A DNA stretch of 58,785 nucleotides, taken from contig JANPFC010000148.1 in assembly GCA_031423235.1 (NCBI GenBank), positions 1 to 58,785 on the forward strand. The letters are read 5' to 3'. Of the stretch, positions 140-43,166 are shown piece after piece. The stretch comes from Chlamydiota bacterium (GTDB lineage Bacteria > Chlamydiota > Chlamydiia > Chlamydiales > SM23-39). Each line of letters starts with the position of its first letter. Within the stretch, counting starts at the first letter, position 1. The notes beneath the pieces were generated by a model, which searched no databases, was not told where the DNA came from, and was given only the letters and a program-made list of their open reading frames with translations. The position numbers and the translations under genes were made by a program.

Positions 140-226
140 ACAGAGACCACCGAGATAAGAATTGAGAGAATAATATATATCTTCTCAGTTCCTATCTCGG
201 TGATCTCTGTGTGCTCGGTGGTGAAA
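140..226. repeat. REP-like hairpin made of 9-nt periodic CAC(A/C)GAG units
   Basis: 28-bp arms 140-167 and 183-210 (25/28 complementary); right side reads ctcggtgat-ctctgtgtg-ctcggtggtgaaa, period 9. Confidence 0.75.
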
Positions 227-232
227 TATGGG

Positions 233-261
233 GCAGCGGGGGGCGTTTCGCCCCCGACTGC
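233..261. terminator. GC-rich hairpin, possible intrinsic terminator just downstream of spoIID
   Basis: gcag-cggggg..cg ttt cgcccccg-a-ctgc stem-loop 7 bp from the spoIID stop; U-tract weak. Confidence 0.4.
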
Positions 262-268
262 TTCTTGA

Positions 269-1450
269 TTACTTTGGAATTGCGTCGAGATTGTAGAGAT
301 AGGTCTCTGGGAAGAATTTAGAGAGGATCTTCACTGCGTTCTCGCCGTTCTGAGCAAGCGCGTTTGCCGAATAGAGGCAAAGTCCCACTCCGTGTCCTTG
401 GCCAAAGCCTGTAAACACAACCGCATCATCCTTGAGCGAGACTGTGAAGTCTGAGCTCTGGAGGTGGGTTGCGCCGAGGCGGCCTTGCAGGGTGAGGAAA
501 TCGAGATCGATGCTCTGCGCGCCGTCTTTCACACGAACTCCATAGACTTTAGAGGATGTCTTATCAACAAAGAGCTCAAAGGCACTGATTTGACTTACGT
601 TGAGAAGATGGGAGAGGGTCTTCTTGCCAATCTGATAGGTCCATTTGCTTTTTTGACGAGAGAGTGCTGCGTGAGGAGCTTCTACCCCTTTCTCTGGAGC
701 AAATGTGTCTTTGCGGAAAATTTGCGAATAGGGTGCTGTTTTTCCTGCGCTGTTCTCTGTCCAGGCTGTCGCAAAGGGGAGGTCTCTGCCATTATCATTA
801 TGGAGAAGGATGAGGTGGCGGGTGCTCTCAACTGCGCGATCGATGGATGAGTTGGAAACTACAAGGGCTGATCCCTGATAGTTGAGCTCAGAGGCGCTGA
901 CATGCCAGTAGCTGTTCGGGTTCGCACGGGTCGCATGGTAGTAGGCGTCGGTGCGGGCAAGTATGGCAAGCGCTGACATCACTTCTGATTCAAGGGGAGC
1001 GAGGAATTGCGAGGTGAGTTTGGACTTCACAAACGACTCAATATCGATATCGTTCACAATATTGATCGATTCGCCAACGCCGTATATCGCAATGGAACCT
1101 GCATATTGGATCCCGTTGATGAAGATCGATGTTTCCGATGAGCGGGGTTTGATGTAGATCTGGTGGATGCCAGGGAACTCTTCGCCCCATTTAAGTCCAT
1201 TGTCCAGGGCGTGGATCATGAATCTCTTGCCGAGCAGACCGGAGGAGACTCGCGATCCGTCGTGAGGATTGAATATATAGTAGGGCCCTTTCACTTCGAG
1301 TAGGACGCCTTCAGCATCCTTTTCGATGAGAATTTGAATGTTGCGGGGCGCCATCGGTTCGGCTATCCGCTCATAAGAGGTATAATCATCAGCTTGAACG
1401 GTAGATAAAGCGCTGCAGAGAATGGCTGCGGCAAAAAGGGAAGTTTTCAT
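269..1450 (-). CDS. spoIID: SpoIID/LytB-domain protein (chlamydial peptidoglycan glycan-processing homolog)
   Basis: Signal peptide; VNDIDIESFVK, ALAILART, G.GHGVGLC..A..LA..G.....IL..FFP motifs; adjacent to ruvB as in chlamydiae. Confidence 0.85.
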   Translation of the reverse strand: MKTSLFAAAILCSALSTVQADDYTSYERIAEPMAPRNIQILIEKDAEGVLLEVKGPYYIFNPHDGSRVSSGLLGKRFMIHALDNGLKWGEEFPGIHQIYIKPRSSETSIFINGIQYAGSIAIYGVGESINIVNDIDIESFVKSKLTSQFLAPLESEVMSALAILARTDAYYHATRANPNSYWHVSASELNYQGSALVVSNSSIDRAVESTRHLILLHNDNGRDLPFATAWTENSAGKTAPYSQIFRKDTFAPEKGVEAPHAALSRQKSKWTYQIGKKTLSHLLNVSQISAFELFVDKTSSKVYGVRVKDGAQSIDLDFLTLQGRLGATHLQSSDFTVSLKDDAVVFTGFGQGHGVGLCLYSANALAQNGENAVKILSKFFPETYLYNLDAIPK

Positions 1451-2463
1451 TGCATTGACTCCGGTATTTTTTTTGGCCTTCGGCCAAGATGTTCATAGGC
1501 AGCAGCTGTGGCTTCGCGCCCCCGCGGGGTTCGCTTTATCATCCCTTGCAAAATGAGAAAGGGCTCATACACTTCTTCTATTGTATGAGATTCTTCGCCG
1601 CATGCAGCTGCCAAATTATTGAGGCCTACTGGGCCCCCGTCGTGATGATCAATAATAACACTTAGGATTTTTTTGTCCATTTCATCTAATCCACGCTCAT
1701 CAATTGCTAACATTTCTAGCGCTTTGTGAGCCGTAGTTTGATCAATGTGTTTCACTTTTTGAATCTGTGCAAAGTCGCGTACCCAGCGGAGGAGATTATT
1801 TGCGATTCGAGGTGTGCCGCGTGAACGTTTGGCGATTTCTAATGAGGCGTCTTGAATGAGATTAACACCTAAAAGTCTTCCTGATCTTTCGACGATTTGT
1901 TTCAGTGTGGCTGGATCGTAGTAGTCCAGACGGAGTGAGATGAGGAAGCGGGAACGCATCGGTGCGCTGAGAAGTCCTGACCGAGTTGTGGCGCCGACGA
2001 GCGTAAATGGATTGAGTTTGACTTGCACCGTGCGGGCGTTGGGGCCTGAGTCGATCATGAGATCAAGCGAAAAATCTTCCATTGCCGAGTAGAGATATTC
2101 TTCAGCAGATCTAGGCATGCGGTGGATCTCATCTATAAAGAGGACATCGCCGAGTTTTAAGTTTGTGAGTATGCCTGCAAGATCGCCTGGTTTTTCAATG
2201 GATGGACCCGATGTGACGCTGAGCTGAGTTCCCATCGATTTTGCCATAATATGGGCAAGCGTTGTTTTGCCAAGTCCAGGAGGACCGGAAAAGAGGCAGT
2301 GGCCGAGCGCTTCTTTGCGGCTCTTTGCAGCTTCGATGAAAATTTCAAGGCGTGCAAGGACCGCTTCTTGGCCAATAAACTCGCTGAGTTGCTGCGGCCT
2401 CAAGGGGCTTTCAAATGGTGCGTCGGGCTTGGCCCAAGAGGACTCGATAAAAGCTTCGCTCAT
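1447..2463 (-). CDS. ruvB: Holliday junction helicase RuvB
   Basis: LRP..L.EFIGQ, GPPGLGKTTLA, FIDEIHR, RGTPRIAN, RTPRGR. Confidence 0.98.
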   Translation of the reverse strand: MSEAFIESSWAKPDAPFESPLRPQQLSEFIGQEAVLARLEIFIEAAKSRKEALGHCLFSGPPGLGKTTLAHIMAKSMGTQLSVTSGPSIEKPGDLAGILTNLKLGDVLFIDEIHRMPRSAEEYLYSAMEDFSLDLMIDSGPNARTVQVKLNPFTLVGATTRSGLLSAPMRSRFLISLRLDYYDPATLKQIVERSGRLLGVNLIQDASLEIAKRSRGTPRIANNLLRWVRDFAQIQKVKHIDQTTAHKALEMLAIDERGLDEMDKKILSVIIDHHDGGPVGLNNLAAACGEESHTIEEVYEPFLILQGMIKRTPRGREATAAAYEHLGRRPKKIPESMQ

Positions 2464-2537
2464 ATATCAGAAAACTGTAGCAAGAAAACCATTTGAAAAG
2501 CTATACATTACAAAGGCCCCCCACAACAATTGGTATT

Positions 2538-3104: not shown

Positions 3105-3115
3105 GAACCTGATAT

Positions 3116-10478: not shown

Positions 10479-10744
10479 TTTACCACAGAGATACGACTAC
10501 TAAAGAGGAGGGAGAATACTGACGGTTCCCAGAACTTTTGCAGGAGAACAAGAAAAAATAGCAGGGATAACAGGATGGACAGGATGAAAAAATACAGAAT
10601 CGGAAAAGTTTATTAAATCCGATACCGATAAGGCAATTATGACACTTAACTATCCTGACCATCCTGTTATCCCTGCTATTTTTTCTTGTTCTCCTGCAAA
10701 AGTTCTGGAAACAGTCATGCTTCTCTAGGGATCTCTTGTGTAAA
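10479..10744. repeat. Long intergenic inverted repeat with 9-nt periodic CAGGAT units
   Basis: 66-bp arms 10520-10585 and 10652-10717 with 3 mismatches; outer degenerate pair tttaccacagagat / atctcttgtgtaaa; lies between convergent genes. Confidence 0.9.
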
Positions 10745-10778
10745 ACTAATTGCGCATCAGCTGTTTGTTAACTGAGTG

Positions 10779-21337: not shown

Positions 21338-21372
21338 TTAACGCAAAGACGCGGTGCCGCTGAGACACAAAG
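21338..21372. repeat. Solo half-element with 8-nt periodic units
   Basis: ttaa-cgcaaaga-cgcggtgc-cgctgaga-cacaaag, immediately after the TPR gene stop; no partner arm seen. Confidence 0.35.
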
Positions 21373-21377: not shown

Positions 21378-23456
21378 TTATTCTTCGCGGGTTTGCTGGA
21401 GCTTGGCTTCCAGCGCCGTGAGGAATTGGGCAAACGCCGAGGTGGCGCGGAGATTATCGAGCCAGTCGTCATCAAGAAGTTCATCAATGGACGGAAGCGA
21501 TCGGGCCCATAGCGCTTTGTAGATGAGTTCCATCCCTTCATGTGTGCGCCCAAGGATCGAATAGAGGCATGCGAGGGTGTAGTAGGCCGCTTCATTGCCG
21601 AGGCGTCCTGCTTTCGTAATTTTTATTTCAGCATCCATATAGAGCTGATTCATGAAGTCGCTATCGAGTGTGTGATGAGCGAGGTGAATGAGGCAAACTC
21701 CCCAATCAAGCCAAATTTGATCATTTTCTTCATCTGCGCGAATAGCTAGCCGAAAGAAATGGACCGCGCGTCTGTAGTATTCAGATTCGCTCGTGATATG
21801 GCCGAGTTGAGAGTAGGAGAGGGCCATCCGGTGGTGAATCCGGGGAAAGTCTGGATCGATCAGGAGCACGTGGGAGAAAATTTCAATCGCCCGTGTGTAG
21901 TGGGACTCTTCTTCAGTAAAGTCGCCGAGCCACTCAAGCGCGCAGGCGTACTCGTAGAGCCATTTCGGGTGGTGGAGGAGAGTATCTTTATGATTTTGAA
22001 GGAGCAGTTCAAAGAGGATGATCGATTGCTCAAGAGTGGGGAGATCATCGAGTATTTCGCTGAATTGGAGAAGGCAGCAGGCCGAATCGAACAGAAGGGC
22101 TGGGCAAGCTGGTTTCAGATCCATGGCTCTAGATAGGAACCGGTGGGCTCTCTCAATTAGGTCTTCATCATCTGTGAGTTCGGCATAGTGCATGTGGACA
22201 AGACCGAGGGCGTGCCATAGTTCTGGATCGCTTCTGTCGATCGAGAGTCCATATTGAAGCTTTTCAATGGCGAGCTCGTAATAATCGGCGTCTTCATAGT
22301 ATTTGCCGAAAGCGATGAGGCAGATTCCATAGGCGTGCCAAAGGTCTGGGTCGTCGGGGAACTGATCGGTCGCTTTAAGGACCTGGTGCTCTGCTTCGAC
22401 GATCAGGTCAAGGCGGGCTGTGATCATACCGAGTGTTGAAAGGCTCTCCACCCACTGGCTGATGATGACGGAGTCTTCTGAATCGAGCTGGGCTGCGCGC
22501 GCGCACTTTTCGATGCTGAGCCGGAGCGATTTCGCGTCGCTATTATGTCTTCCCGATTCGCCGAGGAGCTGTCCCCATCCGAGCCATACGTCCGGATCGC
22601 GGGGAGATATTTTAGAGGCGGCTGAATAGGCGTCGGAGGCTTTGGCCACATACCGCTCGTCGAGCGTATTGATGTAGAGCTGCGAATAGGCTTCTGCAAG
22701 GGACATCCATCCATCAAAATATTGAGGAGAGGCGTTCACTGCTTGCTGCAGGTACTCGATTGACTGGATATAGAGGCGCGACTCGTTGATGAGGAGCCCC
22801 ATTTCGAGGTAGGCTTTGCCGCAATCATTCCAAAATTCAGGAGAGGGCTTCTCTTGGTGGGTTTTGGAGGTCTGGAAGGAATCGATTGCGAGGCGGACGT
22901 CGAGGGCTTCTCCCGAGTGCTGAGCGATCTCAGACCAGGCAATTCCGTTGTCCCAGTGGAGTTCTGCAAGGAGTTCTTTCGGCTGGCCGGCGGAGTGGTC
23001 GAGCGCTTTTTGATATTTGTCTTTCGCTTCAATTAAAAAGTGGTGCTCTTCATGGAATCTGCCGAGTTGTAAGAGGACGTTGCCCCAAGCGACCCATGCA
23101 TCAAAAAAATTGGGTTGGAGCTGGGTGGCGATCTTAAAATTTTTACTTGCGAGGAGGAGCGCTTTCTCTTTCCCTTCTTCCGATCCATACTCGAAGAAGG
23201 CGAGGCCTTGGCGGTACCAGATTTGCGGGTTTTGGCCGTCTAGGTTCGACGCTGCCTCAAAACAGGAGAGGGCTCTTAAGTTGCCTTGCAATAGGGCCAT
23301 TTCCCCTTCGGCCAGATAGCGGTATGCCAACTCTTTTTTTTGCTCTTCCGGCAAATGGCCGCCCTCAATGGCCTCTCTCGGGAGAGAGGTTGAAACAGCT
23401 TTCCTGGGGAAAAACCGGGCGAAGATCCGTCTGAGGGGGGTGGCTTGCATGGTCAT
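21378..23456 (-). CDS. Tetratricopeptide-repeat protein
   Basis: Many ~34-aa helical repeats of the type P....W...G..L (PQIWYRQG, DAWVAWG, PEFWNDCG, PDVWLGWG, PDLWHAYG), ending YTLACLYS. Confidence 0.85.
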   Translation of the reverse strand: MTMQATPLRRIFARFFPRKAVSTSLPREAIEGGHLPEEQKKELAYRYLAEGEMALLQGNLRALSCFEAASNLDGQNPQIWYRQGLAFFEYGSEEGKEKALLLASKNFKIATQLQPNFFDAWVAWGNVLLQLGRFHEEHHFLIEAKDKYQKALDHSAGQPKELLAELHWDNGIAWSEIAQHSGEALDVRLAIDSFQTSKTHQEKPSPEFWNDCGKAYLEMGLLINESRLYIQSIEYLQQAVNASPQYFDGWMSLAEAYSQLYINTLDERYVAKASDAYSAASKISPRDPDVWLGWGQLLGESGRHNSDAKSLRLSIEKCARAAQLDSEDSVIISQWVESLSTLGMITARLDLIVEAEHQVLKATDQFPDDPDLWHAYGICLIAFGKYYEDADYYELAIEKLQYGLSIDRSDPELWHALGLVHMHYAELTDDEDLIERAHRFLSRAMDLKPACPALLFDSACCLLQFSEILDDLPTLEQSIILFELLLQNHKDTLLHHPKWLYEYACALEWLGDFTEEESHYTRAIEIFSHVLLIDPDFPRIHHRMALSYSQLGHITSESEYYRRAVHFFRLAIRADEENDQIWLDWGVCLIHLAHHTLDSDFMNQLYMDAEIKITKAGRLGNEAAYYTLACLYSILGRTHEGMELIYKALWARSLPSIDELLDDDWLDNLRATSAFAQFLTALEAKLQQTREE

Positions 23457-32300: not shown

Positions 32301-32907
32301 CAGGCGCCTTCAGCCGGATAAATAGCCGTTCGCCTGTTGGTTTTAGGACGATCTCTTGACCTGCTCCCATTGCAACGGTCCCTTTCGGAGCTTGGAGGCT
32401 GCCCTGATTATCCACTGTGTAGCCGAGGAGAATGACGTCTCCGTCCCAAGCATTGATTTGGCCGTAGTTGGTGATGGGACTGTTTGCGTCGCCCTTGAAG
32501 AGGATTTCTGAATTGGAAACAAAGTCTGCATCGAGAATATCCAAAGTGGAGGCGAGGAATGAGGCGGTGTTGATAACGGAATCTTTCCCAACGATTACGC
32601 CTGAGGGATTGATGAGATAGACTTTGCCATTGGCCTCGAGGGTTCCCATAAGCTGACTCATATGGCCGCCGGTCACACGGTTGAGCACCGCTGCATCGGA
32701 ACTCGGTTGGAGAAAGCGGGTGAGTTCGCCAGGACTGATCGAGAATTCATTCCAGTGGATCACAGCTTTGTCGCTTGCGGTGATATGGAGCGTGTTAGCG
32801 TCCATCTTTTGGAGAGTCACCGCTCCTGCTGCAACATTTGGATCTTGGGGATTGCCGAAGAGTGCAAAAGTGAACCCAAGTATAGGGATTGCAAGGAAGC
32901 GATTCAT
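29380..32907 (-). CDS. TpsA filamentous-hemagglutinin-like exoprotein
   Basis: Signal peptide; TPS domain I.W.EFSI, LNRVTG, G.L.ANG.VYLINPSG; GG.VELS motif; long Gly/Thr-rich beta-helix-like region; overlaps tpsB. Confidence 0.92.
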   Translation of the reverse strand: MNRFLAIPILGFTFALFGNPQDPNVAAGAVTLQKMDANTLHITASDKAVIHWNEFSISPGELTRFLQPSSDAAVLNRVTGGHMSQLMGTLEANGKVYLINPSGVIVGKDSVINTASFLASTLDILDADFVSNSEILFKGDANSPITNYGQINAWDGDVILLGYTVDNQGSLQAPKGTVAMGAGQEIVLKPTGERLFIRLKAPAEKADTGITHEGKIDALRAELKADGNAYSMAINYKGQTDATRIENRNGEVFLFAEEGFVSVSGPISAGNGEVRILGDQVVLRDGARIDVSGGGTVLVGGGYQGKNPEILNASITLIEKGASIHADGRDGGDGGKVIVWSDAGTGFHGEISAQGGPNGGDGGLVELSSKGLLEIDPEGKVNTAAPFGKGGTLLFDPCAVTIDETPADTGFVINVGIAPCNHDFDFGVNPTSNIKASTLTGALGTNNVCINASTTGMVGGTGSITVISPVIWFASNTLTLVATDAGSTIDIQAAVDVTAAFGVGVDAISVNAPTVNIGRSDHTLMALSSLSSNSGTISVNAATALNIYGGGAGFAGEIRGYGVAEVAVTGGGTILLQPSDSLGSSASIAAPGNISIGTMLTPMGAVSLGTTTALAISEIQRSAAAGNLTIYCADITMQGGANPSAKPTINGDNTLIRTGTLAMNGGSMAGNLIQGGASLNITTTTAGANSCFLEGGDIAASSSSFSSSNITLSVAGNFHAIGSGGASLMPELTGVNGNDLVNVTIGGDLLLQGNVELAGIASGFGPVTVTLTGQNGTGNCTLTGGTGDVAFAVIGTLFGGSTTCTIAGDYILDGGNSCAVIGSAFGSGTGNTTLTGKDYSIMGGPGSPIFLGFLGTGITVGGGSNLPPMGPLPNGIISITSTGPNGITLTGGPGNDMRALIGNSGIFDTDTIDFTLTNPSANLTLNGSPTAASGSGATIFTAGGGYIHDPVGNDIILAGTAGNPAVITVAGGGTGDILLIAGRTISLNEFSAITNDSTGGITLVTDNNNPSPPSVGTNAFFITEAGSAIDGYTTGMGPLRIFASTQSNVTVGGTLNGASFTKGPELVDTDQELWFVYFGDANSTFVNPLAPMFTLFYKGVIASGAFEKVFLTEFTPASTEALYSWRVHFAYNTISYIPTWVRFNQTAYVEAPADMSYEIAHEQYKNYRTLKLDQL

Positions 32908-33004: not shown

Positions 33005-34030
33005 ATGCGGCAATTGTTTGCGGTATTTACGGTGATTTGCGCCTCCATGTATGGCGAATGCGGACCTGGGATAAAACTGTTTGGCGGAAATTCGAATCCT
33101 TTGCTTACTGAAGCGGTCGCAAAGTGTTTGGATACTGAAGTGAGCAAGGCAATAGTCAGCAAGTTCAATGATGGGGAAATCCGGATTCAGATTTTGGATA
33201 ATGTGCGAAATTGCGATGTATTCATCTTGCAGTCCACCTGCATTAGCGAAGATTCAACCGTAAATGATAATCTCATGGAGCTTTATTTGATGGTCAGGGC
33301 CATGAAACGGTCGTCTGCGAAATCGGTAACAGCGGTCATTCCCTATTTTGGCTATGCACGGCAAGATCGGAAGACGATTAGCCGGGTTCCTATTTCCGCA
33401 TCGGATGTGGCGATGCTTTTGGAAGTGGCTGGCGCCGATCATGTGGTGGCAGTCGACTTGCACTGCGGTCAGATTCAAGGATTTTTCCACGAAACACCAG
33501 TTGATAATCTCTATGCATCGACGATTTTCGTCCCTTATGTTGCAAGGCTTGGGCTCTATGATCCGGTGATTGTCTCCCCCGATGCCGGTGGAGTTGAGCG
33601 GGCGAAGAATTTCATCGAAGGGCTCCAATCGCTAGGCGTCCCTTCCAAGATGGCAATCATCGTTAAACAAAGAGCTGATGCAGGAGTGATCGAGTCGATG
33701 AATTTGGTAGGTAAAGTGCGGGGCAGCGATGTGGTGATTGTCGACGATATTTGCGATACTGCAGGGACGCTTGTTCAGGCCGCTAAAGAACTGAAAGAAC
33801 AGGGGGCGAGAAGGGTATTTGCTTGTATTACGCATCCGATTCTCTCTGGTCCTGCGTGCATGAGGATTGGAGATTCTTGCTTGGAAGAGCTGGTTGTGGC
33901 AGACACGATTCCGCTTAGAGGGGATGTTCCGAGAAATGTAAGGCAGCTTTCGGTGGCGCCGCTCATTGCGAATGCAATCTTGCGGATTACGAATGGCGAA
34001 TCGATCTCCGATTTATTTAAGTACAATTAG
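33005..34030 (+). CDS. prs: Ribose-phosphate pyrophosphokinase with signal-peptide-like N-terminal extension
   Basis: FNDGEI, PYFGYARQDRK, DLH..QIQGFF, VSPDAGG, VDDICDTAGT, ITHP. Confidence 0.95.
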   Translation: MRQLFAVFTVICASMYGECGPGIKLFGGNSNPLLTEAVAKCLDTEVSKAIVSKFNDGEIRIQILDNVRNCDVFILQSTCISEDSTVNDNLMELYLMVRAMKRSSAKSVTAVIPYFGYARQDRKTISRVPISASDVAMLLEVAGADHVVAVDLHCGQIQGFFHETPVDNLYASTIFVPYVARLGLYDPVIVSPDAGGVERAKNFIEGLQSLGVPSKMAIIVKQRADAGVIESMNLVGKVRGSDVVIVDDICDTAGTLVQAAKELKEQGARRVFACITHPILSGPACMRIGDSCLEELVVADTIPLRGDVPRNVRQLSVAPLIANAILRITNGESISDLFKYN

Positions 34031-34051
34031 CTATCGTTGGGATTGTCAAGG

Positions 34052-34135
34052 AACATGATATGAAGGATATAATGATACGCATGATAAAAAATAATTTTAT
34101 TATCAAGTGTATCATTATATCCTTCATATCATGTT
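34052..34135. repeat. Intergenic hairpin with 8/9-nt periodic GATA units
   Basis: 36-bp arms 34052-34087 and 34100-34135, 2 mismatches, outer 27 bp perfect; lies between convergent genes. Confidence 0.85.
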
Positions 34136-34141
34136 ATTTGT

Positions 34142-36466
34142 CTAGTCTTGCGGGCCGTTGAGGGAGTCGATAGACCGGAGGCATTCAGCGAATAGCTCGA
34201 TTTGCAGAGGGTCAAGGCCCACAGTGAGGCGAGCGGTCGAGCTCTTTTCTCCAAATAGCATGCCGAAATTAGGATGGTATAGACCAAAGGTTCTCCGGTA
34301 AAACATCGGCTGGCCCTCTTCCATACATTTCAAGTAAAGCGGGCCGCCTACAAGCGCAGAGCTTCGGATTTTATGCAGCGGCCCTGATACACGAATGTCA
34401 ATAAAGGAGGGGAGAGCATCGGCATCAACTGGAATAATTCTATATTCCGAGGTTTTTTTGAAGAGTCTCTCAGGGACTGCATTGAGGAGTTTACGGGTGT
34501 TTTCAAAGATCGTTTTTCGATATTGATCCAAGTGGGGAACTGCATACCGATAAGCGAGGCAAAACCAACTTGCGCTCAACCGATCAGTCAAAAGCGAGGG
34601 GTCTTGGGTAAGGAGGTCAAAGGGGGCCCATTTCGGGTCGCGGTTGTGAATCATGTAGAAGGGGGCTCCCGCATAGTTGTCCATGCCGAACAGATCAAAC
34701 TTCAGTCCGCTTTTGTAACAGACGATGTTGAGAATGCCGCATTCGATCTCTTTCTGAAATTGGGTGAGGAGGTCGCCTACTTGGGGCGAGTCGATCAGAT
34801 CAATCGTACAATCTATGGCGGCTGTAAGGGGTTTCCCTTGCCGCAAGTTCAAAGCTTTGCTGAGGATTCCTCCGATGTTTTCTTGTTTGTAAGAGGGGAT
34901 TTCAGGTTCGGTCCGCTTTAAGACAGGATTGAATTGGACGAGGATGAGATCTGCCTCCAAGAAATCCTCTTCGCTTGCTTCCTCAGTAGATTTAGCGTTA
35001 TAAAGCTCGGTAGAGATCCCTACGCATTCGAAATAAGTGTTTTCTCCATAGAGGACTTTAGGGGCAGAGCCTTGGAGCTTTTCAACAGCCTTAAAAATCC
35101 CCGTGATGCTCGCCATTGCGCAAGAGTGGATGCTGCATGAGGTTAAGGGTCTTAAGGTTGAGGGGATAGAGGTAAGCTTGCTTAAATAGATCGGAGAGAA
35201 ATCAGCGGCGGAAAATGGGGCGGCGACTTCGAGTAGGTTTGATATGTGGGCAAAGATCTCTTCAAAATGGATGGCTGTTTCATGGAAGGGTGTGCTATTT
35301 TTTTCGTTTGCAATGGTTTTCAGCTCCTCCTCAATCTTTGACAGTGAGAGATTTGCTACGCCTGATCGGGTCGGATTCTGAAAGATTCCATCCCACTTCT
35401 CTTTAGGAACAGAATCAAATAGCCCCTTTAGAATGCTAAGAGCTCCCTGAACCATCAGATCTTTTTCCGGTCTGTCCGATTTCCAGTCAAAGGTGTTGAG
35501 AAAGGCGAAGTTGGGATGTTGAGGAGTTGAGAAAAGGCTGCAGCAGATATTGGATAGAGGGGAGGAACGATTGAGTTCTATTAGATTCGCTGTAATTCCC
35601 GATTGAGAAACCCAGTCTAAAAGATATCGATAGTCCTCTTCAGAAGACGATTGCGTCAGGGGGAGAATTCTTATGGCTCCGATTCCTCCGCACTCCACTT
35701 GCTGAATGCAAATCATCTCTTGTTTGGTTTGGGATAGCGTGGTGCGGAAGCTTTCCCATTCTTGAAGCCACTTTTCTGGGGTTTTTTCGGCAATGGCATG
35801 GGTTAGGTCGACGATGACTTTTCCTGTGGCCGCGGTCAGCTTTTGGATGTCATCCGGAGATGAAATTTCAAGATGCGAGGGGAGATATTCACTTATGTTG
35901 TAAGGACGAGTCAATATCAGCGGGTATGATTCGGGCTGTGGAAGCTGTTTTTTTAAGTCGTTCGACCGGTTGGCGTAGGTTCGAGAGGTTTGTCTTCCAG
36001 GATCTCTTGCATAACAGTTGGTTGTCTCTGGGTTTACTTGAATGGAATAGCCAAACATAGGACAAATCCAATCGATTTCTGCATTGTAGAACCCATTTGC
36101 CTTGGCTAGCCATCTCTTTTCCAGGAAGGCAAGAAGCTCTTTGTCTTGCTCTGAAGGGGTGGGTATTTGAGAAAGGAGCGCACGATGGGTGTGCCAGGAA
36201 CTTTGAGATGAGGGGATTGTTTCGGAACCTGGTCTGAATGCCTCAATACAGGTTTTTTGGGCTGCAGCACTTAGTAAACGGCTGAGAGCGAGACATTCAT
36301 TTCCATAGCTCGTGGCCCAAGGAGTGGGTTGGAAAAGAACCCATCCGGTTAATGCCCAATGGGAGGCGCACCTCAGGATTTCTCCCGTGGCAAGATAGAG
36401 AAGTGAATGGTTCCAGCAAAAAGCACTTATAAATAGGAACGCAAGTAACTTTGTTCTACTGCGCAT
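34142..36466 (-). CDS. Hypothetical exported protein with a C-terminal PLP-dependent (Cys/Met-metabolism-like) domain
   Basis: 774-aa ORF with signal-like N-terminus; SCAMASI, YFE, IDCT, KSGLKFDLFGMD parallel SGMAAI / VDNT / S.TKY..GH.D. Confidence 0.6.
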   Translation of the reverse strand: MRSRTKLLAFLFISAFCWNHSLLYLATGEILRCASHWALTGWVLFQPTPWATSYGNECLALSRLLSAAAQKTCIEAFRPGSETIPSSQSSWHTHRALLSQIPTPSEQDKELLAFLEKRWLAKANGFYNAEIDWICPMFGYSIQVNPETTNCYARDPGRQTSRTYANRSNDLKKQLPQPESYPLILTRPYNISEYLPSHLEISSPDDIQKLTAATGKVIVDLTHAIAEKTPEKWLQEWESFRTTLSQTKQEMICIQQVECGGIGAIRILPLTQSSSEEDYRYLLDWVSQSGITANLIELNRSSPLSNICCSLFSTPQHPNFAFLNTFDWKSDRPEKDLMVQGALSILKGLFDSVPKEKWDGIFQNPTRSGVANLSLSKIEEELKTIANEKNSTPFHETAIHFEEIFAHISNLLEVAAPFSAADFSPIYLSKLTSIPSTLRPLTSCSIHSCAMASITGIFKAVEKLQGSAPKVLYGENTYFECVGISTELYNAKSTEEASEEDFLEADLILVQFNPVLKRTEPEIPSYKQENIGGILSKALNLRQGKPLTAAIDCTIDLIDSPQVGDLLTQFQKEIECGILNIVCYKSGLKFDLFGMDNYAGAPFYMIHNRDPKWAPFDLLTQDPSLLTDRLSASWFCLAYRYAVPHLDQYRKTIFENTRKLLNAVPERLFKKTSEYRIIPVDADALPSFIDIRVSGPLHKIRSSALVGGPLYLKCMEEGQPMFYRRTFGLYHPNFGMLFGEKSSTARLTVGLDPLQIELFAECLRSIDSLNGPQD

Positions 36467-36478
36467 ACAATTGGTTAT

Positions 36479-38038: not shown

Positions 38039-38042
38039 GGTT

Positions 38043-38888: not shown

Positions 38889-40820
38889 ATGGCAAGGGGA
38901 ATGAACAGAGAGAAAGGGATCGTCGTTCTCATATCTTTGGCTATCGTGGCCTTGGTCGGCCTCGTCATGTATTTTCAACCTCCATTTATCAACCATTGGA
39001 TCGTAAATGTTGAAAGCGACACTTACGACCGGCAAGTGAGGCGCTTTCATCGTCCGCTCCCTCCCCACCCATCCATTGCGATTGTCGCGATCGATGACAA
39101 GAGCATTGCTGAAGAGGGGAGATGGCCTTGGAATCGGGAAAAGATGGCCCAGCTTGCTCTCGAGTTAGATCGATTGGGCGCAAAAGTCATCGCTTTCGAT
39201 ATGGTTTTTTCAGAGGCGGAAGAAAATCCAGTGGATGCTGTCATTCGGGCAGCTCCAGCTCTTGCTCAAGAGCTGGCGGCCGTCAAGCCCAAATTGGATA
39301 GCGATTCGGCCTTTGCGTCTGCTCTAAAAAAAGGGGCATTCACTTTGGGATTTGCTTTTGCATCCAATGGGAAGAGAGTGGGGCTATTGCCTCCGCCCAT
39401 CCTCGAATTATCTGAAAAAGATCTTGAGAAGACTCTCATTCCCCATATGAATGGCTACATCGGGAACTTGGCTCAATTTCAACAAGGGGCAAAGCAGGGT
39501 GGTTTCATCAATGCGATGATCGATTCCGACGGGATCCTCCGCTTTTCTCCTCTTTTAATGCGCGATCATGAGAAAGTTTACCCTTCCCTTTCACTGCAAG
39601 CAGCCCAACTTTTCCTCTCAGTTCCCTTTTCCGGCATCACCGCCTCAAACTTGGGTGAAAATCAGCTTATTCAAGGGATCCATCTGGGAAACCTGACCAT
39701 TCCAACCGACCCTTGGGGACGGATTTTAATTCCCTATCGCGGCTTGCCCTTCTCTTTCCCGTACATCTCTGCAACCGATGTGTTGCATGGTAAAATCGAA
39801 GAGGAGCAAGTGCGCGGCAAGCTGATCTTTATCGGCAATTCTGCAACCGCTTCCTCCGATCTGCTCACAACTGCGATTTCGCCAGCTTTTCCAGGCGTTG
39901 AAGTGCAGGCGACAATCGCCAGCGGGATTATAGATGACTATCTCCCCTATAAGCCTAACTGGGGTAGAGGGGTGGCGATTGCGATCGTACTGATTCTAGG
40001 CGGCATTGCTGCCCTCACGTTTCCATTCATCAGCCGCACAGCCGCATTTTTATATTCTATTTTGATTATCGTGCTATTAGAGGGGATCAACTATTGGCTA
40101 TGGACTCGCTATGCGATTGTCCTATCTTTCTTTTTCCCCATGCCAACGCTCGTTACTATTTTTATTCTCGATTTGATCAGCGTCTACATCTCAGATATGC
40201 AGCAAAAAAAAGAGATCAAACAGATTTTCGGACAGTACGTCCCATCGGATTTTCTTGAGCAGCTGATCAAAAAGAAAGGTTCGTTCACTTTGGCGGGCGA
40301 AAGCAAAGAACTCAGTTTCCTCTTTGCCGATATTTGGGATTTCTCCTCTTTAGCTGAGCCTTTATCAACAGTAGAGCTGAAAGAGTTTTTGACTCAATAC
40401 TTCACGAAGATGAATGAGACTATTTTTGCTGAAAAGGGGATTTTAGATAAGTATGTGAGAGATCAGATTTCAGCATTCTGGGGAGCCCCATTCTCTGAGC
40501 CAAGACACGCTTATCTAGCAGTCAAAACAGCTCTTGCTATGCAGGCAAATCTTCCCTTACGGAATATGCATATGGGTATCGGGATTAATACGGGTATCTC
40601 CCATGTCGGAGATATGGGGTCCAAATACACCCGCTCTTACACTGCCATTGGTTATCCAGTCGATTTGGCCCACCATTTAAAGACGCTGACAAAACAGTAT
40701 TCAGTTCCAATTCTCGTCGGTGAAGAGACTTGGAAATTAACGCAGAATGACTTCAAATATCGGAAAATTGACCAGATCCAATTTCATGGGAAGACCCTAG
40801 ATATATACGAACCTTCCTAA
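38889..40820 (+). CDS. CHASE2-domain class III adenylate/guanylate cyclase family protein (degenerate active site)
   Basis: IVAIDD.SI...GRWPW.R, IAFDMVF, DSDGILR, GKLIFIG, PGVEV, 3 TMs, LFADI..F, DKY..D, FWGAP, GIGINTG. Confidence 0.9.
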   Translation: MARGMNREKGIVVLISLAIVALVGLVMYFQPPFINHWIVNVESDTYDRQVRRFHRPLPPHPSIAIVAIDDKSIAEEGRWPWNREKMAQLALELDRLGAKVIAFDMVFSEAEENPVDAVIRAAPALAQELAAVKPKLDSDSAFASALKKGAFTLGFAFASNGKRVGLLPPPILELSEKDLEKTLIPHMNGYIGNLAQFQQGAKQGGFINAMIDSDGILRFSPLLMRDHEKVYPSLSLQAAQLFLSVPFSGITASNLGENQLIQGIHLGNLTIPTDPWGRILIPYRGLPFSFPYISATDVLHGKIEEEQVRGKLIFIGNSATASSDLLTTAISPAFPGVEVQATIASGIIDDYLPYKPNWGRGVAIAIVLILGGIAALTFPFISRTAAFLYSILIIVLLEGINYWLWTRYAIVLSFFFPMPTLVTIFILDLISVYISDMQQKKEIKQIFGQYVPSDFLEQLIKKKGSFTLAGESKELSFLFADIWDFSSLAEPLSTVELKEFLTQYFTKMNETIFAEKGILDKYVRDQISAFWGAPFSEPRHAYLAVKTALAMQANLPLRNMHMGIGINTGISHVGDMGSKYTRSYTAIGYPVDLAHHLKTLTKQYSVPILVGEETWKLTQNDFKYRKIDQIQFHGKTLDIYEPS

Positions 40821-41317
40821 ATGGGGGAGACTTTTGCAGTGTCCTTAGGACAGCAGAACATTTCTTTCCGTAATGAACAGCCTAAAGTACAAAGACACAA
40901 AAGACAGCATGGGATCGCCGCGAGACATTTTGAACAGTTTTCAGCACCCTTTATGCGTCCACCCAATTTCATGAGAGGAACGTTCTCTGCTTTGCAGCAG
41001 CACCAGTTTTCATCTGACGGAGTGTGGCAGGCAATCCTTTTAACAATACAGGGTTCGCAGCGGGCTAATTCCCATTTATTAATCGTAAAGCGGATCTTGT
41101 CATAAGGGGATGATGCTGCTTGAATTCTTATATCGATTGCTGAGCCGAAGGCATCAAAGGTCCGTCTTTTTGTTCGAGGCGTCAATGGGAGGTTATGATT
41201 CGCGGGGAGGAGGCCGTCTGGAGATCTTGGCGAAGGAGGGGCTAATAAATCAGGGTTCCTTATAGGCTCAACCATCGACTGGCGCGGAGGCGGTATAATT
41301 GATAGGTTGTATGACAT
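40817..41317 (-). CDS. Small Pro/Ser-rich, Cys-rich hypothetical protein (candidate effector)
   Basis: 166-aa ORF with AAGGA RBS, preceded by an AT-rich region with TGTATAAT; WCCCK, PCCLLCLC, FCCP clusters. Confidence 0.6.
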   Translation of the reverse strand: MSYNLSIIPPPRQSMVEPIRNPDLLAPPSPRSPDGLLPANHNLPLTPRTKRRTFDAFGSAIDIRIQAASSPYDKIRFTINKWELARCEPCIVKRIACHTPSDENWCCCKAENVPLMKLGGRIKGAENCSKCLAAIPCCLLCLCTLGCSLRKEMFCCPKDTAKVSPI

Positions 41318-41450
41318 AATTTCCTTGTTTATTTGTTTAATTATACAGATAACAATAATTTATTGTTAGTTTAAACTATTATTTGTAAAAATAATTTTAT
41401 TCCGATATTTGTTGCAATTTCGAAAACTGGTGTGTAGTTTTCAGAGGTAT

Positions 41451-42833
41451 ATGGAAACAATATCTTCGCGTGAAAAATGGGGTACCCTGATCAGCTGTTC
41501 TCTCAGCAGCTTCGTAGGCTTCATTGATTTTGCAATCGTCAATACAGCTCTGCCTGCTATCGGAGAGAGCCTTTCGGCATCGATGCTTCAGCTGCAATGG
41601 GTCATGAACGCGTTCATCTTAATGATGAGCGTTTTTCCTGCAACGATGGGCAGAGTTTCCGACATTCTCGGCCGGCGCTTTATCAATATTCTCGGGGTTG
41701 TCCTTTTCGGTGCAGCCTCTTTAGTCGGGGGAATGGCTACAAGCGCCACCCTTTTAATCATCTGCCGCCTTTTTCAGGGGATTGGCTGTGCTGCCATCAT
41801 TCCAAGCTCCCTTGCTCTTATTACGCATGCCTTCCCTCCTGAAGAAAAGGGGAGGGCCTTTGGGTTTTGGGCTGGAATCACAGGGATCGGATTTGCTCTG
41901 GGTCCTGTATTAGGAGGGATCCTTGTGAGCACCCTTACTTGGAATTGGATTTTCTACATAAATATCCCCTTTGCCATCGCGAGCCTGATCCTCAATTTTC
42001 TCTTTGTTAAAGAATCAAAAAATACCACCTCGGAAAAGAAAATCGATCCGATCGGATTTATTCTCCTCTCCGTTGGAATTTGTTCATTGGTCGTAGCCTT
42101 AATGCATACTCTTGATTGGGGATGGACATCTTCCTACACCCTCTTTTTCTTTGGCCTCTCAATCGTAAGCATGATTTGTTTTTACCGATCAGAAACTAAA
42201 TGTCCCTATCCGATCATCCCCTTCACTGCTTTCTCGAACAGAACATTTTTATCCTCTGTGGTTGTCTTGTTTTGCATCTTTTTCATCATCACGCCAACTA
42301 TTTTCCTCATCCCTCTCTATCTTCAAATTGTGCGGGGAGAACCAGCTTACATTGCCGGGCTTATGCTCCTTCCGATTACGGGAATCTTGGCTGTCTTTTC
42401 GCCGATTGTCGGCCATTTAGTAGATAAAACCTCTTCTAAAATGTTGATTTTAGCCGGATTATTTTTCCTCCTTATCAGCATTGTTCTGCAGACTTTTTTT
42501 CAAGCAGACACATCTGTGGTCTGGGTGCTGGTCTCCCTGTTTTTTATGGGGTTCGGCTGGACTTTTGGACGAAATCCAGCATCGACGCAAGGAATTACGG
42601 CACTTCCTTCGCACCTTACTGGCGCAGCAACCGGAGTGATTTGGACTTTTCTCAATCTCGGAGGATCCATGGGACTTGCAATAGCAGGAACAGTCTTCCG
42701 AAAATTCTATGAGCCGACAGAGACCCACGCAGCCTTCATCCAAGGGTACCACTGGGCCATGATTCTATTATCAGTTGTGGGAGTATTCATCATTCTCTTC
42801 ACAGCCCTCAGACGTCAGAACCTACCCAACTAA
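41451..42833 (+). CDS. MFS drug:H+ antiporter (DHA2/EmrB-QacA family)
   Basis: D.AIVNTALPAI, LQWVMNA, GRVSD.LGRR, GPVLGG, WIFYINIP. Confidence 0.92.
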   Translation: METISSREKWGTLISCSLSSFVGFIDFAIVNTALPAIGESLSASMLQLQWVMNAFILMMSVFPATMGRVSDILGRRFINILGVVLFGAASLVGGMATSATLLIICRLFQGIGCAAIIPSSLALITHAFPPEEKGRAFGFWAGITGIGFALGPVLGGILVSTLTWNWIFYINIPFAIASLILNFLFVKESKNTTSEKKIDPIGFILLSVGICSLVVALMHTLDWGWTSSYTLFFFGLSIVSMICFYRSETKCPYPIIPFTAFSNRTFLSSVVVLFCIFFIITPTIFLIPLYLQIVRGEPAYIAGLMLLPITGILAVFSPIVGHLVDKTSSKMLILAGLFFLLISIVLQTFFQADTSVVWVLVSLFFMGFGWTFGRNPASTQGITALPSHLTGAATGVIWTFLNLGGSMGLAIAGTVFRKFYEPTETHAAFIQGYHWAMILLSVVGVFIILFTALRRQNLPN

Positions 42834-42957
42834 AAGTTTTCAGCCGATTTTCGATTTAAAATTGGGGGGTAATATACCGAAGAATATTCGAGAATCGGGA
42901 AATTTTTTACCACCCGCGAACAAAGTTCGCTAGAGAACACAGAGCTCACAGAGCCAA

Positions 42958-43098
42958 TTAAACTTTTAGTCGACGTTTCCGAAGGCGCAATTCATATATT
43001 AAACAAGTCTCATAAGCTGATTCCAAAAGCCCTGGTCCAAGAGATCGATGAATGTCTATGGCTGCCCCAATGATTTTGCCTGTGAGAATATTTTCCTC
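42958..43098 (-). pseudogene. Internally deleted GxxExxY protein gene
   Basis: EENILTGKIIGAAIDIHRSLGPGLLESAYETCLIYEL is the family N-terminus (GLLESAY); stops after 46 aa, lacking the nuclease core; no start codon inside the repeats. Confidence 0.85.
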
Positions 43099-43166
43099 CT
43101 CTGTGAGCTCTGTGTTCTCTAGCGAACTTTGTTCGCGGGTGGTAAAAAATTTCCCGATTCTTGAAC

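What the first reader, a model, noticed from the sequence alone, without database searches (positions are those of the whole stretch)
140..43161. Window-wide family of REP/REPIN-like palindromes sharing an 8-9-nt periodic grammar
Seen: five intergenic sites carry short motifs repeated every 8-9 nt, four of them as facing arms of long hairpins. CAC(A/C)GAG type occurs at 140-226, 42931-43121 and the outer shell 10479/10744; CAGGAT type at 10562-10675; (A)TGATA/GGATA type at 34052-34135; CGCAAAGA type at 21338-21372. Three share an outer motif (tttcaccaccgag on the minus strand at 214-226, tttaccacagag at 10479, tttaccac at 42906). All lie just downstream of a stop codon, two between convergent genes. 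Inference: several sequence classes with one architecture, one physically linked to a GxxExxY gene, parallels REP/REPIN classes served by RAYT proteins, but here with a PD-(D/E)XK-type partner. The hairpins may also act as RNA-stability or termination elements.
Basis: partly seen in the sequence, partly recalled or inferred. Interest (0 to 1): 0.8.

Follow-up and report, generated by a model that had tools for sequence, protein, structure and literature searches.

The report
Hairpin relics of GxxExxY nuclease cassettes
The odd periodic hairpins between genes are worn-down copies of small selfish cassettes that carry a little-studied nuclease gene, and the same nuclease-plus-repeat design turns up across many bacterial and some archaeal phyla.

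Summary
Four of the five sites are strong hairpins, the fifth is a weak solo array, and the 8-10-nt periodicity is far above chance genome-wide.

Intact genes here and in relatives sit between inverted arrays of phased short motifs. Each window class matches a gene-bearing cassette, in this genome (CACAGAG, CAGGAT) or in a relative (ATGATA; CACCGAG and the outer shell by short matches). Site 42887-43165 still holds an internally deleted gene.

In 51 of 80 loci from many phyla the anatomy is TYACC + 3 x CRCNGAG, gene, then the mirror image. A second protein clade uses xxxGAT motifs.

Heptamers match between arms (0.94) but the spacers do not (0.50). This favours phased protein-binding sites over a simple stem.

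The RAYT-like mobilising role is not shown. The CACAGAG class rides inside IS630-family TA-targeting elements of about 20 copies, and another class has CAGGG ends with 10-bp duplications.

A 94%-identical strain lacks the 34047-34140 hairpin.

My searches of the held literature found no description of this gene-repeat link.

Verdict: real, a new variant of MITE/REPIN/IVS-like elements; the mechanism is inferred.

The parts
1..139 (.). End of an unrelated insertion sequence (terminal 19 nt AAAAAATCCTAAAGTCGAG) that has cut off the left arm of hairpin 1
   Evidence: The same end occurs at 8 places in the genome. All 7 junctions that have flanking sequence lie inside heptamer arrays.
140..226 (.). 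Class F hairpin (CACCGAG/CACAGAG). The truncated left arm is 140-172. The right arm is 178-226 and ends in the cap GGTGGTGAAA.
   Evidence: arms. (z -6.97). One search shows 9 gene-less copies of this class in the genome. By my reading, its arms resemble the CACCGAG-type arms of gene-bearing loci L012 and L015. In one search the window copy itself gave only short array matches (28-31 nt) to other loci; a related class F copy (C126) matched L037, L012 and L015.
228..258 (.). GC-rich terminal module (GGGGCAGCGGGGGG-loop-CCCCCGAC) that ends the right arm of class F elements
   Evidence: Present at both ends of complete class F copies. It also occurs in arms of gene-bearing cassettes in relatives.
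10479..10492 (+). Left half of a degenerate outer shell (TTTACCACAGAGAT), a clade I cap plus first heptamer
   Evidence: Read. A 15-nt exact match to the arm repeats that flank the GxxExxY gene of L013, from a same-genus genome.
10512..10585 (+). Left arm of the class C hairpin; the CAGGAT array is at 10562-10585
   Evidence: 74-nt arms, 92%. A 20-nt exact match to both arms of the intact GxxExxY gene at G000:C61:9231-9557.
10652..10725 (-). Right arm of the class C hairpin; the mirrored array is at 10652-10675
   Evidence: A second gene-less copy lies at C92:5299-5439.
10730..10745 (-). Right half of the degenerate outer shell
   Evidence: Read. Its reverse complement matches 10479-10492 at 12 of 14 positions. 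Weak.
21338..21372 (+). Solo degenerate array (CGCAAAGA CGCGGTGC CGCTGAGA CACAAAGG, 8-nt period). Possibly a decayed single arm.
   Evidence: Read. One search lists it as an unpaired array. No hairpin (z -0.28). No significant match to gene-bearing loci. This is the weakest part.
34047..34140 (.). Class G hairpin (ATGATA/AGGATA array, clade II grammar), gene-less
   Evidence: (z -15.44). 22-37-nt matches at 92-100% to the arms flanking the clade II GxxExxY gene of L026. Other copies lie at C61:5665-5799 and C87:6-49. Absent from the orthologous locus of a 94%-identical strain (joint 34030 to 34154, 123 nt replaced by 19).
42875..42899 (+). IS630-like terminal inverted repeat (TACCGAAGAATATTCGAGAATCGGG) preceded by TA. 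It is the outer shell of the class B element.
   Evidence: Read. The same type of end borders 19 identical contig-end copies and the intact class B copies. It also borders the IS630-family element with a DDE_3 transposase in L070.
42887..42953 (+). Arm of the class B cassette (cap TTTACCAC, small palindrome GCGAAC..GTTCGC, then CACAGAG-CT-CACAGAG)
   Evidence: 67 nt, 99%. Searches show many copies.
42958..43098 (-). Internally deleted GxxExxY gene. It keeps the N-terminal 45 or so residues, including GPGLLESAYE, and the last 5 codons plus the stop.
   Evidence: PF13366 match at 42964-43086, 39.8 bits against a cut-off of 22, profile positions 3-43 of 117. Translation.
43099..43165 (-). Second arm of the class B cassette. 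Its outer IS630-like end is truncated where the next repeat begins.
43167..43330 (.). A separate 164-nt palindromic MITE (TATACTGCGCTCGG...) abutting the class B element. It is not a heptamer-array element.
   Evidence: I4, I5. 93-100% identical copies or contig-end fragments (79-166 nt aligned) on more than 20 contigs. Summed contig depth is 238 against 8.67 for unique sequence.

Best explanation
The sites are relics of 'GxxExxY cassettes'.

Anatomy. A cassette is a unit of about 430-520 bp (up to about 760). It holds a roughly 120-aa Cas4-like PD-(D/E)XK nuclease gene (PF13366/TIGR04256). The gene is bracketed by inverted arrays of about three phased short motifs that read toward it. Clade I arrays are capped by T(T/C)ACC and use the heptamer C(A/G)CN(G/A)AG every 9-10 nt. 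Clade II arrays use xxxGAT motifs every 8-9 nt.

In this genome (probably Chlamydiota, by my inference) many copies have lost the gene and survive as hairpins. Site 3 is caught mid-decay. Some gene-less forms have multiplied. Cassettes are often nested in other mobile shells: an IS630-family TA-targeting element for class B, and CAGGG ends with 10-bp duplications for class A.

Shown: the anatomy, the gene-repeat link across phyla, the decay series, the multi-copy state and one presence/absence polymorphism.

Inferred, about 0.5: each heptamer is a discrete, phased binding site for the cassette's own nuclease acting as an oligomer.

Inferred, about 0.25: that nuclease acts at cassette ends to move or maintain cassettes, and the hairpins in trans. 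This would be a PD-(D/E)XK analogue of RAYT/REPIN.

Plausible but untested side-effect: as long stems just after stop codons, the hairpins probably also end or stabilise transcripts.
For: 1. Each of the 4 intact PF13366 genes in the genome is flanked by its own motif class. The 6 fragments include window site 3.
2. 29 of 33 genes in this genome and its relatives have flanking inverted repeats above their shuffle maxima.
3. 54 of 78 testable cross-phylum loci score >=35. Six of the 54 are copies from one assembly.
4. 44 of 60 loci score >=35 against 0 of 120 shifted controls.
5. 51 of 80 loci fit the strict pattern cap + 3 heptamers, gene, mirror.
6. Clade II: the 6 loci and 8 of 10 further testable loci carry GAT-type arrays. 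Clade II is separated from clade I by a branch with 100% support.
7. Heptamers are element-specific. Identical pairs within an element are 0.598 against 0.239 shuffled (maximum 0.275 of 1000). Within one arm the figures are 0.577 against 0.239. The heptamer type does not track GC content.
8. Arm-to-arm identity is 0.94 at heptamer positions (0.88 at the variable ones) but 0.50 in the spacers, while spacer length is equal in 101 of 104 cases.
9. The catalytic residues D, ExK and QxxxY and the motif GxxExxY are invariant in 29 sequences. The model has pLDDT 95.8. The fold is nearest Cas4 SSO0001, Z 8.1. Cas4 HMMs match weakly, E 4.5e-6.
10. Decay and spread. Site 3 is an internal deletion. Class D hairpins share loop sequences in 3-4 copies. 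Class F has 9 gene-less copies.
11. Gene and arrays co-occur in related genomes, odds ratio 38.
12. Hairpin 34047-34140 is missing in a 94%-identical strain.
Against: No binding, cleavage or transposition was tested.

Class B, which includes window site 3, lies inside IS630-family ends with TA flanks. An IS630-family element carrying the cassette as a passenger exists in about 19-21 copies here, and in 6 copies in a Waddliaceae assembly. For that class a DDE transposase suffices for spread.

I saw no target-site duplication around the minimal cassettes in the cross-phylum loci.

Four-helix-bundle (PF05635) genes, which are not nucleases, show the same periodic-inverted-repeat design with other motifs: 7 of 7 testable. 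The design therefore does not need a nuclease.

24 of 78 cross-phylum loci and 4 of 33 relatives' loci lack a clear inverted repeat.

Within clade I the heptamer variants cluster only weakly on the protein tree: 44 changes against 55.9 shuffled.

Spacer identity of 0.50 is still above random, so pairing may matter too.

Site 5 is weak.
Confidence: 0.55

Rival explanations
1. Ordinary MITEs with a passenger. The hairpins and cassettes are moved only by DDE transposases of host insertion sequences (IS630 family for class B, others for other classes). GxxExxY is a hitch-hiking gene, and the arrays are its own operator or other regulatory site, not transposition ends.
For: An IS630-family element (DDE_3, E 2e-34) carries the cassette between the transposase gene and one end. 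It has 6 copies in L070-L075.

In this genome 19 contig ends share the cassette's 3' part plus an IS630-like end followed by TA. At least 18 others share the IS630 left end with a transposase start. A 461-nt contig has depth 182.9 against 8.67 for unique sequence. DDE_3 genes are present.

Class A ends in CAGGG, with 10-bp direct repeats in 2 of 3 complete copies.
Against: Most cross-phylum cassettes end at the TYACC cap with no recognisable IS shell. The cap and arrays are conserved across phyla while everything outside them differs. Classes D and F have no TA/IS630-type ends. An operator role does not explain why gene-less arm pairs multiply.
Confidence: 0.3
2. RNA-level, IVS-like element. 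The arms matter as a long RNA stem that RNase III cuts, releasing or insulating the cassette transcript from read-through host transcripts. The periodic look comes from slippage plus palindrome correction.
For: Size and design resemble the 428-444-nt intervening sequence of Coxiella 23S rRNA: a 28-bp stem, a small ORF, and excision by RNase III in vitro (passages of PMC4990558 read).

The IVS-type four-helix-bundle genes in relatives share the periodic-arm design.

All window sites lie just downstream of stop codons. The stems are very stable.
Against: Spacers between heptamers are only 0.50 identical between arms while heptamers are 0.94. Selection is therefore on the units, not on an unbroken stem.

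Direct copies within one arm stay alike (0.577 against 0.239), which pairing does not require.

The cap TYACC and the count of three units are conserved across phyla.
Confidence: 0.2
3. Host-serving REP-like repeats. The hairpins are kept because they terminate transcription, stabilise mRNA or bind host proteins, and the link to GxxExxY genes is secondary.
For: Intergenic position after stop codons, two between convergent genes. Strong stems.
Against: Hairpin 34047-34140 is dispensable in a 94%-identical strain. The classes differ between related genomes, and the arrays track the presence of the gene. Site 3 and several other copies are visibly decaying gene cassettes.
Confidence: 0.1
4. Chance low-complexity sequence or an assembly artefact.
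For: Many copies lie at contig ends (52 of 91 unpaired arrays lie within 300 nt of an end).
Against: Periodicity is 141 pairs against 2 in the shuffle. A reversed-pattern control gives 0-1 per genome against up to 130. The same design is found in complete and long-contig genomes.
Confidence: 0.01

Closest known systems
REP/REPIN repeats with RAYT transposases
   Same: Short palindromic repeats scattered between genes, often as inverted doublets. There are several classes per genome, each tied to one gene that is itself flanked by that class. Definitions were taken from the search listing and abstracts of PMC3337134 and PMC3116915.
   Different: The partner here is a Cas4-like PD-(D/E)XK protein, not an HUH tyrosine transposase; no PF01797 gene is in the genome. 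The repeats are phased arrays of three 7-mers with a TYACC cap, not GTAG/CGTC-tagged palindromes (the tag is known to me from the title and abstract of PMC3733652 only). Gene copies are multiple, and site 3 and some other copies arise by internal deletion. No catalytic link is shown.
MITEs derived from IS630/Tc1-mariner-type insertion sequences
   Same: Terminal inverted repeats, TA flanks, no transposase, high copy number, and origin by internal deletion. All of this holds for class B.
   Different: The periodic arrays are an inner module, distinct from the IS630 ends. They occur across phyla without any IS630 shell. Classes D and F lack such ends.
23S rRNA intervening sequences carrying an S23p four-helix-bundle ORF (PF05635)
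   Same: A selfish unit of about 430-450 nt made of a terminal stem and one small ORF of unknown function, with unknown means of spread (PMC4990558, passages read). PF05635 genes in relatives show the same periodic inverted-repeat flanks.
   Different: The cargo here is a nuclease and the location is intergenic. Whether GxxExxY cassettes ever sit in rRNA could not be tested (searches failed).
Cas4 / RecB-family nucleases
   Same: The fold and the motif order E, D, ExK, QxxxY.
   Different: Only about 120 aa. The similarity is weak (Z 8.1; Foldseek best E 1.8e-3). There is no CRISPR context. Whether the iron-sulfur cysteines are present was not examined.
Transposon ends with several phased subterminal binding sites (Tn7, Mu, CACTA elements). 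This comparison is recalled, not taken from any call.
   Same: Inverted arrays of repeated short sites at a fixed phase, at both ends of an element.
   Different: Those sites are bound by DDE transposases. Here no transposase is encoded within the minimal unit.

Membership tests
GxxExxY protein (PF13366 PDDEXK_3 / TIGR04256) | Profile score over the curated cut-off | tested here: met
   The window remnant scores 39.8 bits against a cut-off of 22 but covers only profile positions 3-43 of 117. Intact genomic copies score 129.5-139.6 bits in Pfam and 133.6-140.4 bits in TIGR04256 against a cut-off of 35.
GxxExxY protein (PF13366 PDDEXK_3 / TIGR04256) | Intact catalytic core (D, ExK, QxxxY) after the GxxExxY helix | tested here: not met
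   Met in intact copies: invariant G21 G23 E26 Y29 D66 E76 K78, with Q90 and Y94 nearly invariant, in 29 sequences. The window copy has lost this part by internal deletion, so it is a pseudogene.
REP/REPIN-RAYT system | HUH Y1 transposase (RAYT) partner gene | tested here: not met
   PF01797 gives 0 matches at E <= 0.01 in the genome (96.9% complete). The control rings in 6 of 14 known genomes.
REP/REPIN-RAYT system | Dispersed intergenic palindromic repeats as inverted doublets, with the partner gene flanked by its own class | tested here: met
   155 arrays and 32 convergent pairs. The genes are flanked by their own class.
REP/REPIN-RAYT system | GTAG or CGTC tag at one end of the palindrome | tested here: not met
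   The conserved end is T(T/C)ACC in 51 of 80 loci. The tag criterion is known to me only from the title and abstract of PMC3733652.
MITE (non-autonomous DDE-transposon derivative) | Terminal inverted repeats, target duplication, no transposase, many copies | tested here: inconclusive
   Class B has an IS630-like end plus TA and many copies. Window site 3 keeps one such end (42875-42899), and the other is truncated. Class A has 10-bp direct repeats in 2 of 3 complete copies. For classes C, D, F and G no duplication could be defined.
IS630 family (shell of class B) | DDE_3 transposase, TA target, matching inverted ends | tested here: met
   L070 has DDE_3 at E 2e-34 plus HTH domains, and ends TATACC...GGTATA. 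The genome has 3 DDE_3 matches. TA follows the shared end in 19 of 19 contig ends.
23S rRNA intervening sequence elements | Insertion in a 23S rRNA helix and excision by RNase III | not testable with these tools
   The window sites are intergenic, between protein-coding ORFs. The rRNA search failed twice. No RNA data are available.
Cas4 / RecB nuclease family | Shared fold and motifs | tested here: inconclusive
   VIA-align Z 8.1 to SSO0001, with other PD-(D/E)XK enzymes at Z 6.8-7.8. Foldseek best E 1.8e-3. Cas4 HMMs match at E 4.5e-6 over residues 54-101. No PDB sequence match.

The most novel reading that the evidence does not exclude
GxxExxY cassettes are a previously unrecognised, pan-phylum class of autonomous mobile element. 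A minimal Cas4-like PD-(D/E)XK nuclease binds phased heptamer arrays at its own ends and mobilises both the cassette and its gene-less hairpins. This would be a second, independent invention of the RAYT/REPIN lifestyle. The four-helix-bundle 'IVS protein' cassettes, with their own periodic arms, would be a sister class. That would finally give the rRNA intervening sequences an origin.
Probability: 0.25. Interest if true: 0.9.

Novelty: new variant of a known kind. Interest (0 to 1): 0.75.

Why it matters
PF13366/TIGR04256 is a large, widely scattered family. A 2012 survey lists its function as 'Unknown' and notes 'multiple transfers' (PMC3424549, passage read).

A conserved DNA signature around the gene gives the family a testable partner: its own heptamer arrays. 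It also gives a likely lifestyle as a selfish cassette.

The signature explains a class of intergenic hairpins and assembly breaks in environmental Chlamydiota. It offers a simple rule for annotating such relics: TYACC + 3 x CRCNGAG, mirrored.

It links these cassettes by design to the long-unexplained ORF-bearing intervening sequences of 23S rRNA.

If the protein reads the heptamers, the many natural protein/heptamer variants would be a ready-made set for studying DNA-recognition specificity in a 120-aa nuclease.

Tried and rejected
- Chance or low complexity: rejected.
- Known RNA family: no Rfam match in the window at gathering score.
- Phage families: no PHROG match.
- Solved relatives by sequence: none.
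- Empty-site comparison in 13 same-genus genomes. Coding DNA is only 64-75% identical and the flanking genes are mostly on different contigs, so no clean empty sites were obtained.
- Target duplications around the minimal cassettes in cross-phylum loci: none seen by eye.
- Heptamer type against GC content: no tie.
- Heptamer type against the protein tree within clade I: only weak clustering. The careful tree search did not finish, so a quick tree was used.
- Expression: no RNA holder listed.
- Whether cassettes occur in 23S rRNA: the rRNA search failed twice and the question was dropped.
- The search for related loci with the 29-sequence alignment had no usable conserved stretch. It was repeated with 10 closer sequences, so the cross-phylum sample is biased toward clade I relatives of class B.
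- Literature. Searches for GxxExxY (3 papers), PDDEXK_3 (1), TIGR04256/PF13366/IPR026350 (2), CACAGAG + heptamer + terminal inverted repeats + nuclease (7), IVS + four helix bundle (14), and Chlamydiae + MITE/palindromic repeats (409 held at least 2 of the 4 terms; the 10 top-ranked were listed and seen) gave nothing on a gene-repeat link. Curated family descriptions (TIGRFAMs, InterPro) could not be read and may say more.
- No complex prediction was run.

Full report
**What is in the window**

The window is contig C148 of a 2.56-Mb draft genome: 148 contigs, 47% GC, 96.9% complete. Its gene content includes CesT, a Ser/Thr kinase, DnaA, YidC and menaquinone genes. The nearest named homologues of the cassette protein come from Parachlamydiaceae and Waddliaceae assemblies. 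Together these suggest Chlamydiota; that placement is my inference.

Two of them were folded and are far more stable than shuffles (z -6.97 and -15.44). The fifth site, 21338-21372, is only a degenerate solo array with an 8-nt period and no hairpin (z -0.28).

All five sites lie just after a stop codon. Two lie between convergent ORFs. Rfam finds nothing in the window.

**The periodicity is real**

Genome-wide, same-strand CRCNGAG pairs at 8/9/10 nt number 35/76/30. A block shuffle gives 0/2/0, and neighbouring spacings of 11-15 nt give 0-7. The CAGGAT, AACGAT and ATGATA/GGATA motifs show the same 8-9-nt peak.

With a slightly relaxed heptamer, the genome has 155 arrays. They form 32 convergent pairs: 29 with loops of 9-226 nt and 3 with loops of 373-481 nt that hold a gene. 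Of the 91 unpaired arrays, 52 lie within 300 nt of a contig end. So these repeats break the assembly.

**The key link to a gene**

The loop of the 42887-43165 hairpin encodes, on the minus strand...IIGAAIDIHRSLGPGLLESAYE.... This is a PF13366 match of 39.8 bits against a cut-off of 22, covering profile positions 3-43 of 117. Comparison with the intact copy at C53 shows an internal deletion that keeps the first 45 or so residues and the last five codons.

The genome has 4 intact PF13366 genes and 6 fragments. Each intact gene sits between long inverted repeats that carry its own motif:

| Locus | Class | Motif |
|---|---|---|
| C75 | A | CGCAGAG |
| C53 | B | CACAGAG |
| C61 | C | CAGGAT |
| C90 | D | CACAGAG, other spacing |
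| split gene C38/C69 | E | AACGAT |

The window classes map onto these cassettes as follows.
- The CAGGAT hairpin (10512-10725) shares 20-nt exact matches with both arms of the C61 gene.
- The ATGATA/GGATA hairpin (34047-34140) matches the arms of a clade II gene in a related genome, L026.
- The first hairpin (140-226, class F) has 9 gene-less copies here. By my reading its arms resemble the CACCGAG-type arms of gene-bearing elements in relatives (L012, L015). In one search the window copy itself gave only short array matches; a related class F copy matched L037, L012 and L015.
- The degenerate outer shell at 10479 matches the arm repeats of L013.

**Generality**

I aligned 350 nt upstream against the reverse complement of 350 nt downstream of each gene.
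- 29 of 33 genes in this genome and 22 of its relatives exceed their own shuffle maximum. 28 of 33 score >=35. Four (L016, L017, L033, L032) have no repeat.
- 54 of 78 testable loci from a genome-collection scan score >=35. The scan covers Chlamydiota, Verrucomicrobiota, Chloroflexota, Planctomycetota, Acidobacteriota, Thermodesulfobacteriota, Pseudomonadota, Bacteroidota, Methanosarcinales and others. Six of the 54 are copies from one assembly.
- With windows shifted by 800 nt as a control, the figures are 44 of 60 real loci against 0 of 120 controls.
- A second protein clade, separated by a branch with 100% support, uses GAT-type motifs instead. This holds for the 6 clade II loci and for 8 of 10 further testable loci from other Chlamydiota families.

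Across 41 related genomes, the array pattern and the gene co-occur: 19 both, 4 gene only, 2 arrays only, 16 neither. The odds ratio is 38 and Fisher p is 5.8e-6. Kin are not independent, so the p value overstates the case. The reversed-pattern control gives 0-1 hits per genome.

**What the arrays look like functionally**

Heptamer variants are element-specific. The fraction of identical heptamer pairs within an element is 0.598, against 0.239 when heptamers are shuffled among elements (maximum 0.275 in 1000 shuffles). Direct copies within one arm give 0.577 against 0.239. The variant does not follow GC content.

Between the two arms of one element:
- heptamer positions are 0.94 identical, and 0.88 at the variable positions;
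- spacers are 0.50 identical (99 of 198);
- spacer length is equal in 101 of 104 cases.

Selection therefore acts on discrete units at a fixed phase of about one helical turn, more than on an unbroken stem. This is my main reason to read the units as protein-binding sites. That the binder is the cassette's own protein is inference. It rests on the element-specific variants and on the change of motif grammar with protein clade.

**The protein**

Residues G21, G23, E26, Y29, D66, E76 and K78 are invariant, and Q90 and Y94 nearly so, in 29 sequences. This gives the E / D / ExK / QxxxY order of RecB- and Cas4-type nucleases; that assignment is my recall.

The AlphaFold model is confident (pLDDT 95.8). 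Its best structural neighbours are:
- Cas4 SSO0001, Z 8.1;
- the BpuSI nuclease domain, Z 7.8;
- Hjc, Z 6.8;
- Foldseek best E 1.8e-3.

Cas4 HMMs match weakly, at E 4.5e-6. There is no PDB sequence relative.

**Mobility, and the complication**

Gene-less forms have multiplied. Class D hairpins share the same loop in 3-4 copies, and class F has 9 copies without an assembled gene.

In run X2, a contig of a 94%-identical strain joins 34030 to 34154, with 19 other letters in place of the 123 nt that include hairpin 34047-34140. The matching side is only 26 letters, so this is a moderate result.

Class B, however, is nested in an IS630-family shell.
- 19 contig ends share an identical 140 nt: the 3' end of a GxxExxY gene, its array, the cap, then ...CGATTCTTGAACTTTTTTCGGTA, followed by TA and unique flanks.
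- At least 18 other ends share the matching left end with a transposase start.
- A 461-nt contig of this repeat has depth 182.9 against 8.67 for unique sequence.
- A Waddliaceae assembly has six copies of an IS630-family element (DDE_3, E 2e-34) that carries the cassette as a passenger.
- The intact class B copies are this shell with the transposase deleted. Window site 3 is a further deletion. It keeps one IS630-like end at 42875-42899 and is cut at the other end by a 164-nt MITE.

Class A ends in CAGGG, with 10-bp direct repeats in 2 of 3 complete copies. That this resembles ISAs1-type ends is recalled and was not tested.

For at least class B, then, a DDE transposase can explain the spread. 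The minimal cassettes in other phyla show no such shell and no duplication that I could see.

**A parallel family**

PF05635 four-helix-bundle genes encode the 'IVS protein' of 23S rRNA intervening sequences. In relatives they are flanked by inverted repeats in 7 of 7 testable loci. The scores are 37-144 against controls of 20-26. The motifs are different short periodic ones: GGGCAC with period 6, and TGAAATC and AAACGCAA with period 8.

The Coxiella IVS is a 428-444-nt stem-plus-ORF unit whose origin is unclear (PMC4990558, passages read). This makes IVS elements the closest design relative. It also shows that the design does not require a nuclease.

**Comparison and verdict**

The elements behave like REPINs or MITEs: dispersed intergenic hairpins in classes, each tied to a flanked gene. 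They are not members of the REP/RAYT family. The genome has no RAYT gene and the repeats have no GTAG-type tag.

My searches of the held papers found no description of the gene-repeat link. A 2012 survey lists PF13366 as function 'Unknown'. Curated database notes could not be read.

My estimates are:
- about 0.9 that the window sites, except perhaps site 5, are relics of GxxExxY cassettes;
- about 0.5 that the arrays are binding sites for the cassette protein;
- about 0.25 that this protein itself mobilises them.

Noticed in passing
window 1-139; also G000 C24, C60, C73, C81, C96, C136: An insertion sequence with terminal repeat AAAAAATCCTAAAGTCGAG is inserted inside heptamer arrays at all 7 junctions that have flanks. 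It seems to target these arrays, as some insertion sequences target REPs (that comparison is recalled).
   Followed up: partly
window 43167-43330: A 164-nt palindromic MITE (TATACTGCGCTCGG...CCGAGCGCAGTATA) with 93-100% identical copies or contig-end fragments on more than 20 contigs, many at contig ends. Summed contig depth is 238 against 8.67 for unique sequence.
   Followed up: partly
L148-L153, L159 (relatives); G000:C97:21649-21942: Four-helix-bundle genes (PF05635, the 23S rRNA IVS protein family) are flanked by inverted repeats built from other short periodic motifs (GGGCAC, TGAAATC, AAACGCAA). In G000 one such gene lies next to a class B GxxExxY remnant.
   Followed up: partly
G040:C1 (L161-L170): The array-pattern counts (39 forward, 36 reverse hits) suggest a few dozen copies of a ~330-nt element with ends CATACGCATCAAC; 10 loci were read. 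It has inside-out CACAGAG arrays (caps facing each other across a T-rich 15 nt) at its centre. Each copy that was read sits inside a CAGGAT-type hairpin. This is nesting in the opposite sense to window site 2.
   Followed up: partly
G034: A genome with 61 PF13366 matches, most of them identical C-terminal fragments (profile positions 66-117). Arrays lie about 258 nt apart. This looks like a burst of one deletion derivative.
   Followed up: no
L013:33-275: Five tandem copies, at a 57-nt period, of the TTACCACAGAGATA arm upstream of a GxxExxY gene.
   Followed up: no
G000 C97:~22290-22330 and C85:~32790-32830: A tiny palindromic insert of about 36 nt (TATACCGAAG...CTTCGGTATA), with IS630-like ends, sits inside a GxxExxY pseudogene and inside a class D hairpin. 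It may be a minimal MITE or an excision footprint.
   Followed up: no
window 228-258; arms in L011, L037, L084, L148, L159; G000 classes D and F: A GC-rich mini-hairpin module (GGGGG-AAG/CTT-CCCCC with CCCC flanks) recurs at the outer ends of both GxxExxY and four-helix-bundle cassettes in this bacterial family.
   Followed up: no
G000:C75:2164-2511: The class A GxxExxY gene has one in-frame TAG. It is otherwise full-length.
   Followed up: no
tree: The GxxExxY protein tree mixes phyla freely (for example Chlamydiota with Anaerolineae, and Phycisphaerae with Bacteroidota). This fits frequent horizontal transfer.
   Followed up: no
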